From Promethearchaeota archaeon (GTDB taxonomy: Archaea; Asgardarchaeota; Hermodarchaeia; Hermodarchaeales; Hermodarchaeaceae), in contig JBHLMG010000004.1 in the NCBI GenBank assembly GCA_048938385.1, positions 101,342-126,397 of the forward strand: a stretch of DNA of 25,056 nucleotides, written 5' to 3'. Below are positions 12,684 through 14,830 of this stretch, piece after piece. Under the pieces are notes generated by a model. That model made no database searches, had not been told where the DNA came from, and saw nothing but the letters and a program-made list of their open reading frames with translations. The first letter of the stretch is position 1; each line of letters starts with the position of its first letter. Position numbers and translations under genes: made by a program.

Positions 12684-13631
12684 TTAGGGTTGAGGAATGG
12701 CAAGGTCCTTTGGTCCAAGCTTTGAGAAGTTGGCTTCAGGATAGTTATCTTGGATGATGTTTCGCACGATTTCAGCCCACTTGACTTTTTCACGAGCTAG
12801 AAACTTTAGCCCTTCAACGGAGGACCAGGGCGTATAAAGCGCCATACTTGGACCTGGTTCGAATTTGTAATAAACGGGTTGGACACATCGAGTGATCTCA
12901 GGGGCGTCGTAGAATCGGTTGAAACCACCAAAACTGGGCATTAACATAATGTGGATGTCAATGGGGAAGTTAGTGGCTTGACGAATGGCGGCTAATTGTG
13001 GGACCGACATATCAGCGACGGGGTTGAAACTGCCTGCACCTAGTTGTTCAAGCAGTTTTCCTCCTGCTGGCGATGCATGACCAGCAAAAATGCTCACTTT
13101 GAAGGTGATGTCTTTGGGGATTTCTCCGATTTCTTTCAACTTATTCAGTGTCCAGAGCAGTCCTTCGTCAATGACTAAGAATCCGCGAAAGCCTAGCTCA
13201 ATTCCTCGTTGTATGTCGGTGATCACTTCAACGAGTTTGTCGGCTCCACGAAATCGCATACCCGAAAGGATCCCGTCTGGTGTGGCAATTTGGCGACCAA
13301 TATCCCAGCTGACCCGAGGACCGGGAGTTAAGATGACTTCCATCTTGGCATCGTGTGCCATTTGGGCAAATTTTCGGAGTTCTTTATCGTCAAGAAGAGT
13401 GGCACCCATAACCACGCTAATGAGGCGGTGACAGGGAATGTCTCGTTTTTCTGACTCGTCAATCAATGCCTCCAAGACTTCGGGGCGTTCAACACCAGAA
13501 ATTTCAATACGATAGCCAGCACCGTCTGGAAACCGCTTCTCGCTCGTTGGCAAATCGTAAGCATCTTGTCCGGGTAATCCAATTTTTTCTAAGGCTCTAC
13601 GGACCTTTTCATATGATTTCAGGCTAACCAT
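12684..13631 (-). CDS. Uncharacterised TIM-barrel protein ('peptidase U32-like' annotation family)
   Basis: LPTSEKRFPDGAGYRIEI, GPRVSWDIG, GFRGFLVIDEGLL, GAGSFNP and PVYYK; gagggt SD before ATG 13631; no U32 Fe-S Cys cluster; 25 nt upstream of the aldolase-Fae gene. Confidence 0.7.
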   Translation of the reverse strand: MVSLKSYEKVRRALEKIGLPGQDAYDLPTSEKRFPDGAGYRIEISGVERPEVLEALIDESEKRDIPCHRLISVVMGATLLDDKELRKFAQMAHDAKMEVILTPGPRVSWDIGRQIATPDGILSGMRFRGADKLVEVITDIQRGIELGFRGFLVIDEGLLWTLNKLKEIGEIPKDITFKVSIFAGHASPAGGKLLEQLGAGSFNPVADMSVPQLAAIRQATNFPIDIHIMLMPSFGGFNRFYDAPEITRCVQPVYYKFEPGPSMALYTPWSSVEGLKFLAREKVKWAEIVRNIIQDNYPEANFSKLGPKDLAIPQP

Positions 13632-13680
13632 TATTGGACCCTCGTATAGCAGGGTTTTGTCCACTGCGTGCACAAAAAGG

Positions 13681-13856
13681 TTGCAGTTGTTGCGTGAAAG
13701 GAGTGTTTTTCAACTGCGGAGATATTTCTTACATGGCTCCGTCTTCCTGGCTATCTTAAACCCACCGAGTCCTCCGGACGGAGATGCAAGGATAGTGGGT
13801 TCGGTCGAGACGGAGCCACAACTTACAGGTTCAAATCCAGTTCTCCGGTAACCTGT
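13681..13856. ncRNA. Candidate structured RNA (unclassified ncRNA or cis-regulatory leader)
   Basis: Perfect 11-bp helix 13734-13744/13808-13818. Further 7-bp helices: 13683-13689/13711-13717, 13751-13757/13789-13795, 13759-13765/13795-13801 and 13825-13831/13850-13856. T-loop-like GGTTCAAATCC at 13828-13838. Confidence 0.5.
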
Positions 13857-13864
13857 CATCTATC

Positions 13865-14830
13865 GTGGAGGAAGCAGATGTTCTAATGGAATCCGTCCCC
13901 ACTTTTCCAATCCAATTTCAGAAACGCTTTCAAGCTCTTCTTGGGGAGGAATATGATCAATTCATCACCTGCCTCTCCCAACCACTTACCAGTTTCGTAC
14001 GAATAAACACCCTCAAGGTGAACCTTCAGAGAGGCTTCGACCAACTAAAAGCCCTGGATATCGCTCCCATCTCCTTACCCTGGTTCGCTGCTGGCTTCCG
14101 AGTAACTGGAAACCTCGAGCAACTACCCTTTACACGGGAATACGCCCTCGGCTACTACTACATTCAGGAGGGAGGGAGCATGATACCTCCTATAACCTTA
14201 GACCCCCAATCATCACATACTATCTTAGATCTTTGTGCTGCACCAGGCTCAAAAACAACACAGCTCGCACAGATCATGCGCAACCAGGGCGTCATCATTG
14301 CAAATGACCGTTCGTTTCGTCGTTTAACAAGTCTCGGTCATAACATTCAGCTATGCGGCGTAATTAACACCTTTCTGCTGTGCACCGATGGACGCCATCT
14401 TGCCACACAATTTCCTTTAAAATACGACCGTGTACTCGTCGATGCACCCTGTACCGCTTCTGGCCATCTTCGTAGTAAACCTCCCCAATTGCTATCTCCT
14501 AACCTCAAACGGATAAGAGGTATTCAAGCCGTGCAGAAGGGACTTCTAACCTCGGGGTTTAAACTGCTAAAACCAAATGGCCTTCTCGTCTACGCCACCT
14601 GTAGCCTTCATCCCGAAGAAAATGAAGTAATTGTTAACCACCTCCTGTCCAAGTTCAACGATGCAAAAATAGAACGACCGGTTCTAATTGGCCTTAAGAG
14701 CCATTCAGGGTTAACACATTGGGAAGACTTGGAATTCAACGATGTTATGCATAAATGTCTGCGTGTCTATCCACACGATAACGATACCGACGGGTTCTTT
14801 ATAGCTCTCATCAGGAGGATCACAAGTTGA
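13865..14830 (+). CDS. RsmB/NOP2/RsmF-family RNA m5C methyltransferase (ATG 13886 is an alternative start)
   Basis: YYIQE, LDLCAAPGSKT, DAPC, YATCSLHPEENE and DGFF; both catalytic Cys present. Confidence 0.94.
   Translation: MEEADVLMESVPTFPIQFQKRFQALLGEEYDQFITCLSQPLTSFVRINTLKVNLQRGFDQLKALDIAPISLPWFAAGFRVTGNLEQLPFTREYALGYYYIQEGGSMIPPITLDPQSSHTILDLCAAPGSKTTQLAQIMRNQGVIIANDRSFRRLTSLGHNIQLCGVINTFLLCTDGRHLATQFPLKYDRVLVDAPCTASGHLRSKPPQLLSPNLKRIRGIQAVQKGLLTSGFKLLKPNGLLVYATCSLHPEENEVIVNHLLSKFNDAKIERPVLIGLKSHSGLTHWEDLEFNDVMHKCLRVYPHDNDTDGFFIALIRRITS

What the first reader, a model, noticed from the sequence alone, without database searches (positions are those of the whole stretch)
13681..13856. Unclassified, densely base-paired intergenic element with competing helices and a T-loop-like motif
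Seen in the ~230-nt divergent spacer: (a) hairpin gcagttg/caactgc (13683-89/13711-17); (b) perfect 11-bp helix tggctccgtct/agacggagcca (13734-44/13808-18), with a rough chance expectation of about 0.006 for a spacer this size; (c) inside it, two crossing 7-bp helices ctatctt/aggatag and aacccac/gtgggtt that share G13795, so they form either a tight pseudoknot or mutually exclusive folds; (d) a second gacggag (13777-83) that can compete for ctccgtc (13737-43); (e) 3' hairpin acaggtt/aacctgt enclosing GGTTCAAATCC. An alternative + strand fold gives an acceptor-like stem cggaga/tctccg (13717-22/13842-47), an unpaired D-region, the long helix and a T-arm. This resembles the topology of a miniature tmRNA/YrlA tRNA-like domain, but G1-G72 and one T-stem pair mismatch and there is no G3-U70. 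ACA follows helix (b) directly, as in H/ACA guides. On the minus strand, hairpin (a) is followed by TTTTT upstream of the TIM-barrel/aldolase-Fae operon, which looks like an attenuator. I match it to no family I know. Inference: either a new ncRNA ahead of the RNA-modification genes or a riboswitch-like leader for the C1 operon.
Basis: partly seen in the sequence, partly recalled or inferred. Interest (0 to 1): 0.7.

Follow-up and report, generated by a model that had tools for sequence, protein, structure and literature searches.

The report
Asgard H/ACA pseudouridine guide RNA
The "unclassified" intergenic structure is an unannotated small RNA gene of an Asgard (Hermodarchaeia) archaeon: a single-hairpin box H/ACA guide RNA that most likely directs pseudouridine formation at the base of helix 69 of 23S rRNA, a site also modified in Sulfolobus, yeast and human, so it is a new member of a well-known RNA class.

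Summary
Comparison with 16 relatives shows that only part of them is a conserved element.

**What is conserved:** a + strand hairpin of about 90 nt (window about 13733-13823). It has a 10-bp lower stem followed directly by an invariant ACA, a large internal loop, a 7-bp upper stem, invariant K-turn-type GA/GGA nucleotides and a small apical hairpin. Seven pairs show compensatory changes. Sixteen G·U cells fix the strand as +.

**What is not conserved:** the crossing helix ctatctt/aggatag, upstream hairpin (a), and the 3' hairpin with GGTTCAAATCC. The two T-runs are divergent archaeal TATA boxes, not an attenuator.

**Predicted function:** the invariant loop strands complement 23S rRNA on both sides of one uridine in GACUC-U-CUUAAGGUAGCC (E. 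coli U1923). This is the unique best rRNA match (0 of 300 shuffles as good). The same site is Ψ2066 in S. islandicus, Ψ2266 in yeast and Ψ3749 in human. Cbf5, Nop10 and Gar1 are encoded in the genome.

**Deviations:** a C·C mismatch sits next to the target U, three target nucleotides are unpaired, the upper stem is 7 bp, and the spacing to ACA is 16-17 nt. Published archaeal guides tolerate comparable deviations.

**Limits:** no Rfam, tRNA or tmRNA match, and no RNA data.

This scan has already found H/ACA guides in Asgard genomes, including another locus of this genome. Verdict: a new member of a known kind.

The parts
13697..13714 (+). Promoter of the sRNA gene: purine-rich BRE-like AAAGGAG (13697-13703) and TATA-type box TTTTTCAAC (13706-13714), centred about 25-26 nt before the first base of the lower stem
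   Evidence: GGAG and the T-run are invariant in 13 relatives. The same TTTTTCAAC box lies at a similar distance upstream of a tRNA-Pro gene of the same genome, and similar AAAG-N-TTTTT-AAC boxes precede other tRNA genes. The promoter role is an inference.
13733..13823 (+). Predicted mature box H/ACA sRNA (about 90 nt). The ends are inferred from the TATA distance and from where conservation stops (ACA plus about 3-6 nt)
   Evidence: Conservation covers this span only. Covariance model R1 finds exactly one copy in 16 of 18 other genomes of the class. The core folds with z -2.84.
13735..13744 (+). Lower stem (H1), 5' strand GGCUCCGUCU
   Evidence: Pairs with 13808-13817. Six of 10 pairs have changes on both sides across 17 sequences; 97.6% of cells are paired.
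13745..13758 (+). 5' strand of the pseudouridylation pocket. The guide part GGCUAUCUUA (13749-13758) pairs with 23S UAAGGUAGCC (E. coli 1926-1935). 13745-13748 is a variable non-guide part
   Evidence: GGCUAUC is invariant in 17 sequences, and GGCUAUCUUA is invariant in genus g1 (the window's own genus). The neighbouring 4-6 nt vary freely. Complementarity comes from the target scan.
13759..13765 (+). Upper stem (H2), 5' strand AACCCAC
   Evidence: Pairs with 13795-13801. 100% of cells are paired; one pair shows C-G / U-A / U-G.
13766..13769 (+). K-turn/K-loop candidate, non-bulged strand C-G-A-G. Proposed sheared pairs are G13767·A13792 and A13768·G13791, with G13769-C13787 closing
   Evidence: All four bases are invariant in 17 sequences. 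The assignment to a K-turn is by consensus only (inference).
13772..13783 (+). Apical hairpin CUCC-N4-5-GGAG
   Evidence: The stem is invariant; loop length and sequence vary.
13787..13794 (+). K-turn/K-loop candidate, bulged strand C-[R-A-G]-G-A-W-A
   Evidence: C87, A89, G90, G91, A92 and A94 are invariant. R88 and W93 change together.
13795..13801 (+). Upper stem (H2), 3' strand GUGGGUU
13802..13807 (+). 3' strand of the pocket, CGGUCG (consensus CRGUCR). 13803-13807 pairs with 23S UGACU (E. coli 1917-1921). C13802 faces C1922
   Evidence: GUC is invariant. The two R positions vary only G/A opposite target U's, apart from one U at 13807 in one relative.
13808..13817 (+). Lower stem (H1), 3' strand AGACGGAGCC
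13818..13820 (+). ACA box, immediately 3' of the lower stem
   Evidence: Invariant in all 16 sequences that reach this position.
13674..13682 (-). TATA-type box (AACCUUUUU on the minus strand) of the divergent TIM-barrel/aldolase-Fae operon. Not part of the RNA.
   Evidence: Invariant AAAAAGGTT. It lies about 45 nt upstream of the conserved ATG (13631) and the conserved SD CGAGGG (13640-45).
13825..13856 (+). Genome-specific hairpin (e) with GGTTCAAATCC. Not part of the conserved element
   Evidence: No counterpart in any of 14 relatives.

Best explanation
Window about 13733-13823 (+) is the gene of a single-hairpin archaeal box H/ACA guide sRNA of a Hermodarchaeia-type Asgard archaeon, transcribed from its own TATA box.

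**Proposed mechanism.** The lower stem plus ACA would anchor Cbf5 (with Nop10 and Gar1). The invariant GA/GGA motif above the 7-bp upper stem would bind L7Ae. The two strands of the internal loop would pair with 23S rRNA on either side of one uridine:
- The 3' strand (R-G-U-C-R) pairs with U1917-U1921.
- The 5' strand (GGCUAUCUUA) pairs with U1926-C1935.
- C1922-U1923-C1924-U1925 (E. coli numbering) is left at the top of the pocket.

The predicted product is pseudouridine at U1923, at the base of helix 69. A neighbouring U (1921 or 1925) might also be converted.

**Shown here:** sequence conservation, covariation, strand, ACA invariance, unique rRNA complementarity, and the presence of the protein genes.

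**Inferred:** transcription, RNA ends, L7Ae/Cbf5 binding, and the actual modification.
For: 1. **Conservation.** One copy occurs in 16 of 18 other genomes of the class and in none of 133 other Asgard genomes. Conservation stops just after ACA.
2. **Structure.** 98.9% of cells are paired and 7 pairs changed on both sides, against 0-2 pairs in slid controls and no shuffle reaching 7 (0/500).
3. **Strand.** Sixteen G·U cells on + would be A·C on -. ACA is invariant.
4. **Descriptor.** An H/ACA descriptor (H1 of at least 9 bp + ACA, pocket, H2 of 5-7 bp, flanking GA...GA) hits only 4 places in the 2.48-Mb genome. These include this one and a second H/ACA-like hairpin. It hits 0 in the reversed genome.
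5. **Target.**
   - The unique best bipartite match in Asgard 16S+23S scores 35-37, against 24 for the next site.
   - 0 of 300 shuffles reach 35.
   - Genome-wide background is about 7 sites per 5 Mb, which gives about 0.006 expected in rRNA.
6. **Target sequence.** It is identical in 23S of both genera of the class.
7. **Pattern of variation.** Guide bases are invariant or vary only G/A opposite target U's, while adjacent pocket bases vary freely.
8. **Known Ψ site.** The same site is Ψ2066 in S. islandicus, guided by the H/ACA-like sR148 with genetic proof (PMC11077068). It is also yeast Ψ2266 (snR84) and human Ψ3749 (PMC2794176).
9. **Proteins.** Nop10, Gar1 and a TruB_N/Cbf5-type synthase are encoded.
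10. **Promoter.** The promoter box is identical to that of a tRNA-Pro gene.
Against: - There is no transcript evidence (no RNA run listed) and no Rfam hit even at E of 10 or less.
- The geometry is not the Pyrococcus canon (PMC2377435):
  - H2 is 7 bp, against 5-6.
  - 16 guide nt lie between ACA and the top of the pocket, against 14-15.
  - A C·C mismatch sits next to the target U.
  - Three target nucleotides (UCU) are unpaired.
- In the sister genus g2 the top 1-3 pairs of the 5' guide duplex are lost.
- The K-turn has only one clear Watson-Crick pair in its C-stem and an extra base on the NC side, so L7Ae binding is not assured.
- The own genome assembly lacks this part of 23S, so the target comes from congeners.
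Confidence: 0.83

Rival explanations
1. It is an H/ACA-shaped RNA that binds the H69/H70 region of pre-23S rRNA as a folding or splicing chaperone. It would hold the two exon ends that flank the local rRNA introns, without, or in addition to, making pseudouridine.
For: - The pocket is atypical: 4 target nucleotides are not paired.
- In relatives the 23S gene carries introns exactly inside the target: between 1923/1924, 1931/1932 and 1928/1929.
- For the 1923/1924 intron, the two guide strands pair with different exons.
Against: - Genus g2 has the RNA, but its one available 23S has no intron here.
- The site is a proven Ψ in Sulfolobus and eukaryotes.
- Archaeal BHB splicing needs no guide (established knowledge).
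- Atypical pockets are catalytically active in Haloferax and Pyrococcus.
Confidence: 0.07
2. It is a cis-acting 5' leader (riboswitch-like or processing signal) of the gene that follows on the + strand.
For: Only about 45-65 nt separate ACA from the next start codon in the window and in several relatives, and no obvious separate promoter lies between.
Against: - The downstream gene differs. It is RsmB-like in the window and in 2 of the 14 relatives aligned, an unrelated gene in most others, and others again.
- Conservation ends at ACA.
- The architecture and rRNA complementarity are unexplained by a leader role.
Confidence: 0.04
3. One reading: a minus-strand attenuator or riboswitch leader of the TIM-barrel/aldolase-Fae operon, or a miniature tRNA-like (tmRNA/YrlA-type) domain.
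For: - The element always lies next to the TIM-barrel gene.
- The minus strand folds slightly better by energy.
- A GGTTCAAATCC motif is present in the window.
Against: - The core lies upstream of the operon's conserved TATA box, so it would not be in that mRNA.
- Sixteen G·U cells would become A·C on the minus strand.
- Hairpin (a) is not conserved.
- A TnpB-type insertion separates the element from the operon in one relative.
- The T-loop-like motif and the acceptor-like 3' strand are not conserved.
- ARAGORN and Rfam are negative.
Confidence: 0.02

Closest known systems
Classic single-hairpin archaeal box H/ACA sRNAs (e.g. Pyrococcus Pf9/Pab91-type motifs, PMC2377435; S. islandicus sR115 and sR435, PMC11077068)
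   Same: - A lower stem followed directly by ACA.
- A large internal loop with a bipartite rRNA-complementary guide.
- An upper stem capped by a GA/GA kink-turn-type motif.
- Length of about 70-90 nt, with the Cbf5/Nop10/Gar1/L7Ae protein set.
   Different: - No detectable sequence or covariance-model similarity (Rfam negative).
- H2 is 7 bp rather than 5-6.
- 16-17 nt to ACA rather than 14-15.
- The K-turn C-stem is replaced by an irregular region plus a 4-bp apical hairpin.
- A mismatch sits next to the target U, which lies in an unpaired UNN.
Haloferax volcanii sR-h45 stem-loop 2 (guides Ψ1940/Ψ1942 = E. coli 1915/1917 in helix 69; PMC7075261)
   Same: - It targets the same rRNA helix.
- Its pocket is atypical, with four unpaired target nucleotides (UNUN).
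- Its target-to-ACA distances are 17 and 19 nt. That is the same count I obtain here for U1923 and U1925.
- Activity of such pockets depends on the ACA box, which is invariant here.
   Different: - sR-h45 is a two-hairpin RNA, whereas this is a single hairpin.
- The target uridines differ (loop of H69 versus base of H69).
- The unpaired string here is CUCU rather than UAUG.
S. islandicus sR148 (atypical H/ACA-like RNA guiding 23S Ψ2060 and Ψ2066; PMC11077068), and yeast snR84 / its human counterpart (Ψ2266 / Ψ3749; PMC2794176)
   Same: The predicted target uridine is the same (E. coli U1923 equivalent).
   Different: [quoted passage not shown]
- The eukaryotic guides are two-hairpin H/ACA snoRNAs without a K-turn.
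- No sequence homology to any of them was detectable or testable here.

Membership tests
Archaeal box H/ACA guide sRNA | Hairpin with a basal helix H1 of at least 7 bp | tested here: met
   10 bp (13735-44/13808-17). 97.6% of cells are paired in 17 sequences, and 6 pairs have changes on both sides.
Archaeal box H/ACA guide sRNA | ACA (ANA) trinucleotide immediately 3' of H1, near the RNA's 3' end | tested here: met
   ACA at 13818-20 is invariant in 16 of 16 sequences that reach it. Conservation ends a few nt later. The 3' end itself is not mapped.
Archaeal box H/ACA guide sRNA | Internal loop whose two strands pair with a target RNA on both sides of an unpaired U-N | tested here: inconclusive
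   5 bp + 10-11 bp with 23S rRNA is the unique best rRNA site, with 0 of 300 shuffles as good. However, there is a C·C mismatch next to the U, and UCU (UNN) is unpaired rather than UN. UNN and UNUN pockets are active in Pyrococcus and Haloferax.
Archaeal box H/ACA guide sRNA | Target U 14-16 nt (15 +/- 1) from the ACA box | tested here: inconclusive
   16 guide nt (13802-13817) lie between the top of the pocket and ACA. By the counting of PMC7075261, U1923 lies at n+17. That is outside the Pyrococcus optimum but within the range active with an ACA box in Haloferax.
Archaeal box H/ACA guide sRNA | Upper helix H2 of 5-6 bp capped by a K-turn or K-loop with tandem sheared G·A pairs (L7Ae site) | tested here: inconclusive
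   H2 is 7 bp, with covariation. The invariant G13767-A13768 and G13791-A13792, a 3-nt bulge R-A-G, and closing G13769-C13787 fit the K-turn consensus. The C-stem is irregular and one extra base lies on the NC side.
Archaeal box H/ACA guide sRNA | Host encodes Cbf5, Nop10 and Gar1 (and L7Ae) | tested here: met
   PF04135 Nop10 (74.8 bits), PF04410 Gar1 (37.4 bits) and PF01509 TruB_N (97.8 bits) all score above cut-off in the own genome. L7Ae was not searched.
Archaeal box H/ACA guide sRNA | Expressed as a small RNA, bound by Cbf5, with Ψ present at the predicted site | not testable with these tools
   No RNA run holds the locus. The organism is uncultured.
Curated Rfam H/ACA families (HgcE/F/G and others) or any other Rfam family | Score at or above the family's gathering threshold | tested here: not met
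   No hit at gathering thresholds in the window. Only two chance-level hits at E of about 7-8 in the spacer. RF00064 is not found in the genome.
tRNA-like domain (tRNA, tmRNA, YrlA) | Acceptor stem plus T-arm with a conserved T-loop, detectable by ARAGORN or Rfam | tested here: not met
   ARAGORN finds 0 genes and there is no Rfam tRNA/tmRNA/Y RNA hit. The T-loop-like GGTTCAAATCC and the 3' acceptor strand are absent from all relatives.
Transcription attenuator / riboswitch leader of the minus-strand operon | Conserved structure inside the 5' UTR, between promoter and start codon, on the mRNA strand | tested here: not met
   The conserved core lies upstream of the operon's conserved TATA-type box. 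Hairpin (a) is paired in 69.7% of cells, no better than shuffles. G·U pairs indicate the + strand.

The most novel reading that the evidence does not exclude
The guide's target spans an intron hot-spot of Asgard 23S rRNA. Introns sit between 1923/1924, 1928/1929 and 1931/1932 in different relatives. The RNP could therefore engage its full target only after splicing. Alternatively, its two guide strands might clamp the two exon ends, which would couple rRNA intron removal, exon ligation or quality control to H/ACA RNP binding at helix 69. This would be an RNA-guided checkpoint not described in archaea.
Probability: 0.08. Interest if true: 0.65.

Novelty: new member of a known kind. Interest (0 to 1): 0.36.

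Why it matters
- **Annotation.** It adds a well-supported, unannotated RNA gene to Asgard genomes. No H/ACA guide for these genomes is in Rfam, and I found none in the papers searched.
- **Evolutionary reach of the site.** It suggests that the helix-69-base pseudouridine shared by Sulfolobus, yeast and human is also guide-directed in the closest archaeal relatives of eukaryotes. Here the guide would be a classic ACA-type hairpin rather than the ACA-less guide used by Sulfolobus.
- **Test case for pocket geometry.** Its deviant pocket (7-bp upper stem, 16-17 nt spacing, mismatch beside the target) is a natural test case for how much tolerance the H/ACA RNP has.
It also removes a supposed new riboswitch or tRNA-like element from the list.

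Tried and rejected
- **Known families.** Rfam at gathering and at E of 10 or less, and ARAGORN: nothing. Rfam HgcG in the own genome: nothing.
- **Own 23S rRNA.** It is not assembled in this MAG, so the target was taken from congeners and other Asgard 23S.
- **Pattern search for guides with the same two guide strands in 400 Asgard genomes.**
  - Outside the class the hit rate equals the control rate.
  - The one conserved pair of hits (L074/L075) lies in coding sequence.
- **Weak model hits in G002 and G011.** Both are coding sequence.
- **Paralogues with the same K-turn module in the genome.** None found.
- **Expression.** No RNA holder is listed for the locus; read laying was therefore not used.
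- **Papers on Asgard H/ACA RNAs.** None found in the library.
- **Alternative K-turn registers.** R88-A89 as the sheared pairs, or the C-stem formed by H2, were rejected because the required partners are not conserved.
- **Alternative target U1921.** It was judged less likely because five target nucleotides would be unpaired.

Full report
**1. What is in the sequence.**

The spacer lies between two divergent genes.
- On the minus strand is a TIM-barrel gene. Its conserved start is the ATG at 13631, preceded by the conserved SD CGAGGG at 13640-45.
- On the plus strand is an RsmB/NOL1-type methyltransferase gene.

ARAGORN finds no tRNA or tmRNA. Rfam 15 finds nothing at gathering thresholds in the whole window. 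At E of 10 or less, only two chance-level hits appear in the spacer.

Folding energy:

| Stretch | + strand z | - strand z |
|---|---|---|
| Whole spacer | -1.39 | -2.82 |
| 93-nt core | -2.84 | -3.49 |

Energy alone is unremarkable for the whole spacer on + and cannot choose a strand.

**2. Organism and conservation.**

Record titles of loci encoding the neighbouring TIM-barrel protein name Hermodarchaeota/Promethearchaeota (Asgard) MAGs. The spacer is conserved at 67-82% identity in 13 of 14 congeners and in a sister genus, but only over window about 13674-13824. I call the window's own genus g1 and the sister genus g2.

An alignment of 15 orthologous spacers shows four things:
- A highly conserved core runs from GGCUCC (13735) to GCCACA (13820).
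- Two conserved T/A runs lie upstream of the core.
- Similarity is lost a few bases after ACA. The 3' hairpin with GGTTCAAATCC exists only in this genome.
- The downstream gene differs between genomes: RsmB-like in the window and in 2 of the 14 relatives aligned, other genes elsewhere. The TIM-barrel gene is always the upstream neighbour.

In G013 a 1.3-kb insertion encoding a 391-aa TnpB/OrfB-like protein separates the TIM-barrel gene from the element. The element keeps its own upstream boxes and stays intact.

**3. Structure.**

On 17 orthologues aligned to covariance model R1, three helices were scored:

| Helix | Window coordinates | Cells paired | Variation |
|---|---|---|---|
| Lower stem | 13735-44 / 13808-17 | 97.6% | 6 of 10 pairs changed on both sides |
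| Upper stem | 13759-65 / 13795-801 | 100% | one pair C-G / U-A / U-G |
| Apical stem CUCC/GGAG | 13772-75 / 13780-83 | 100% | invariant |

- Overall, 98.9% of cells pair and 7 pairs have double changes. Slid controls give 27-48% pairing and 0-2 such pairs, and no shuffle reaches the observed count (0/500).
- Sixteen cells are G·U on the + strand and would be A·C on the - strand. No cell shows the reverse. The RNA is therefore on the + strand.
- Hairpin (a) pairs in only 69.7% of cells, no better than shuffles (44/500).
- The 'competing' second gacggag is the 3' half of the apical hairpin.

**4. Architecture.**

The conserved parts, in order, are:
- H1 (10 bp);
- an internal loop (14 nt on the 5' side, 6 nt on the 3' side);
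- H2 (7 bp);
- invariant C-G-A-G on the 5' side and C-R-A-G-G-A-W-A on the 3' side;
- a small apical hairpin;
- an invariant ACA directly after H1.

This is the layout of an archaeal box H/ACA motif as defined in PMC2377435 and PMC11077068.

The invariant bases allow a K-turn or K-loop in the orientation used by archaeal H/ACA RNAs:
- sheared G13767·A13792 and A13768·G13791;
- a 3-nt bulge at 13788-90;
- a closing pair G13769-C13787.

The C-stem is irregular and one extra base lies between the sheared pairs and H2, so this feature is consistent but not proven.

A descriptor of this layout hits 4 places in the 2.48-Mb genome and none in the reversed genome. One hit is this locus. Another is an H/ACA-like hairpin at C37:18892-18954.

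Nop10, Gar1 and a TruB_N/Cbf5-type synthase are encoded in the genome.

**5. Promoters.**

- The box TTTTTCAAC (13706-14), preceded by AAAGGAG, is centred about 25-26 nt before the first base of H1.
- The identical box lies at a comparable distance before a tRNA-Pro gene of this genome. Similar boxes precede other tRNA genes.
- The other conserved run (AACCUUUUU on the minus strand, 13682-13674) lies about 45 nt before the TIM-barrel ATG and is that operon's TATA-type box.

**6. Target.**

I scanned Asgard 16S and 23S rRNAs for a U flanked by sequences complementary to the two loop strands. I allowed UN or UNN unpaired and one unpaired guide base at the top of each strand.

- The best site by far is the U in UGACUC-U-CUUAAGGUAGCC of 23S. 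It scores 35-37, against 24 for the next site.
- 0 of 300 shuffles reach 35.
- Across the whole genome, sites this good occur about 7 times per 5 Mb. That gives about 0.006 expected in 4.6 kb of rRNA.
- The own assembly lacks this part of 23S. The sequence is identical in a congener (G006) and in the sister genus (G017).

Pairing with the target:
- 13803-07 (R-G-U-C-R) pairs with E. coli U1917-U1921.
- 13749-58 (GGCUAUCUUA) pairs with U1926-C1935.
- C13802 faces C1922.
- U1923-C1924-U1925 are unpaired.

Pattern of variation:
- Across the 17 orthologues the guide bases are invariant, or change only G/A opposite target U's. One exception is a U at 13807 in one relative.
- The non-guide part of the loop varies freely.
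- In genus g2 the uppermost 1-3 pairs of the 5' duplex are lost. This fits the published finding that the 3' guide duplex matters more than the 5' one.

By the offsets given in PMC2794176 (yeast Ψ2258 = E. coli 1915, Ψ2260 = 1917), U1923 corresponds to yeast Ψ2266 (snR84) and human Ψ3749. PMC11077068 shows that the same site is Ψ2066 in S. islandicus. There it is lost on deletion of the ACA-less H/ACA-like sR148.

**7. Deviations from the canon.**

- In Pyrococcus, functional motifs have an H2 of 5-6 bp and 14-15 nt between ANA and the target. Here H2 is 7 bp and 16 guide bases precede ACA.
- The same paper shows that a UNN configuration works.
- Haloferax sR-h45 stem-loop 2 modifies two U's of an unpaired UNUN at 17 and 19 nt from an obligatory ACA box. 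By that counting, U1923 and U1925 here also lie at 17 and 19.
- I therefore predict Ψ1923 as the main product. Whether U1921 or U1925 is also converted remains open.

**8. Rivals.**

- *Leader of the downstream gene.* This is unlikely because that gene is not conserved.
- *Leader or attenuator of the minus-strand operon.* This is contradicted by strand, by position relative to the TATA box, and by the TnpB insertion.
- *tRNA-like reading.* It rests on non-conserved sequence.
- *Non-catalytic chaperone role at the intron-rich H69/H70 junction.* This cannot be excluded.

**9. Verdict.**

This is a real, conserved, unannotated box H/ACA guide sRNA gene, specific to the Hermodarchaeia class among the genomes searched. 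R1 finds one clear copy in 16 of 18 other class genomes and in none of 133 other Asgard genomes under strict filters.

It is a new member of a known kind. Earlier reports of this scan describe other H/ACA guides in Asgard genomes, including a three-unit one elsewhere in this genome. I did not rely on them for the verdict.

Noticed in passing
L029 (G006:C17), L030 (G006:C60), L023 (G019), around the 23S H69/H70 junction: 23S rRNA genes of relatives carry introns inside the predicted guide target. A roughly 700-nt insert lies between E. coli 1923/1924 (G006:C60). A roughly 330-nt insert lies between 1931/1932 (G006:C17, and the same 3' junction in G008). A roughly 28-nt mini-insert lies between 1928/1929 in G019. 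One MAG holds two different configurations. G017 has none here.
   Followed up: partly
L002:880-2193 (G013:C91): A 1.3-kb insertion encoding a 391-aa TnpB/IS605-OrfB-like protein with a C-terminal zinc ribbon lies between the TIM-barrel gene and the sRNA promoter. It is flanked by a 14-nt duplication of the spacer sequence (window 13671-13684).
   Followed up: partly
window 13788 and 13793: Two unpaired positions of the K-turn region change together: G...A in 14 sequences, A...U in the window, and A...C in G013 and G007. This may be a tertiary or non-canonical contact, or shared ancestry. It rests on too few events to tell.
   Followed up: no
G000:C37:18892-18954 (+): A second H/ACA-type hairpin occurs in the same genome: a 9-bp stem + ACA, a pocket, a 5-bp upper stem and a UGA...UGA K-loop. 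It was found by my descriptor scan. It is probably the PTC-directed guide noted earlier by this scan.
   Followed up: no
window 13821-13886 and orthologous positions in L003, L005, L006: Only about 45-65 nt separate the ACA box from the next start codon, and no obvious TATA box lies between. In some relatives an SD is present. The downstream mRNA may arise by read-through from the sRNA promoter, or may be leaderless.
   Followed up: no
window 12684-13673 (-): The TIM-barrel ORF is probably 315 aa, starting at the conserved ATG 13631 with SD CGAGGG, not at GTG 13673. It has no Pfam match. Its relatives at 55-70% identity occur in Bathyarchaeia and in Chloroflexota/Dehalococcoidia MAGs, which hints at inter-domain transfer.
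   Followed up: no
window 13865-13890 (+): The RsmB-like gene most likely starts at ATG 13886 (MESVPTF...), with GGAGG at 13868-72 as SD, rather than at the GTG 13865 listed mechanically.
   Followed up: no
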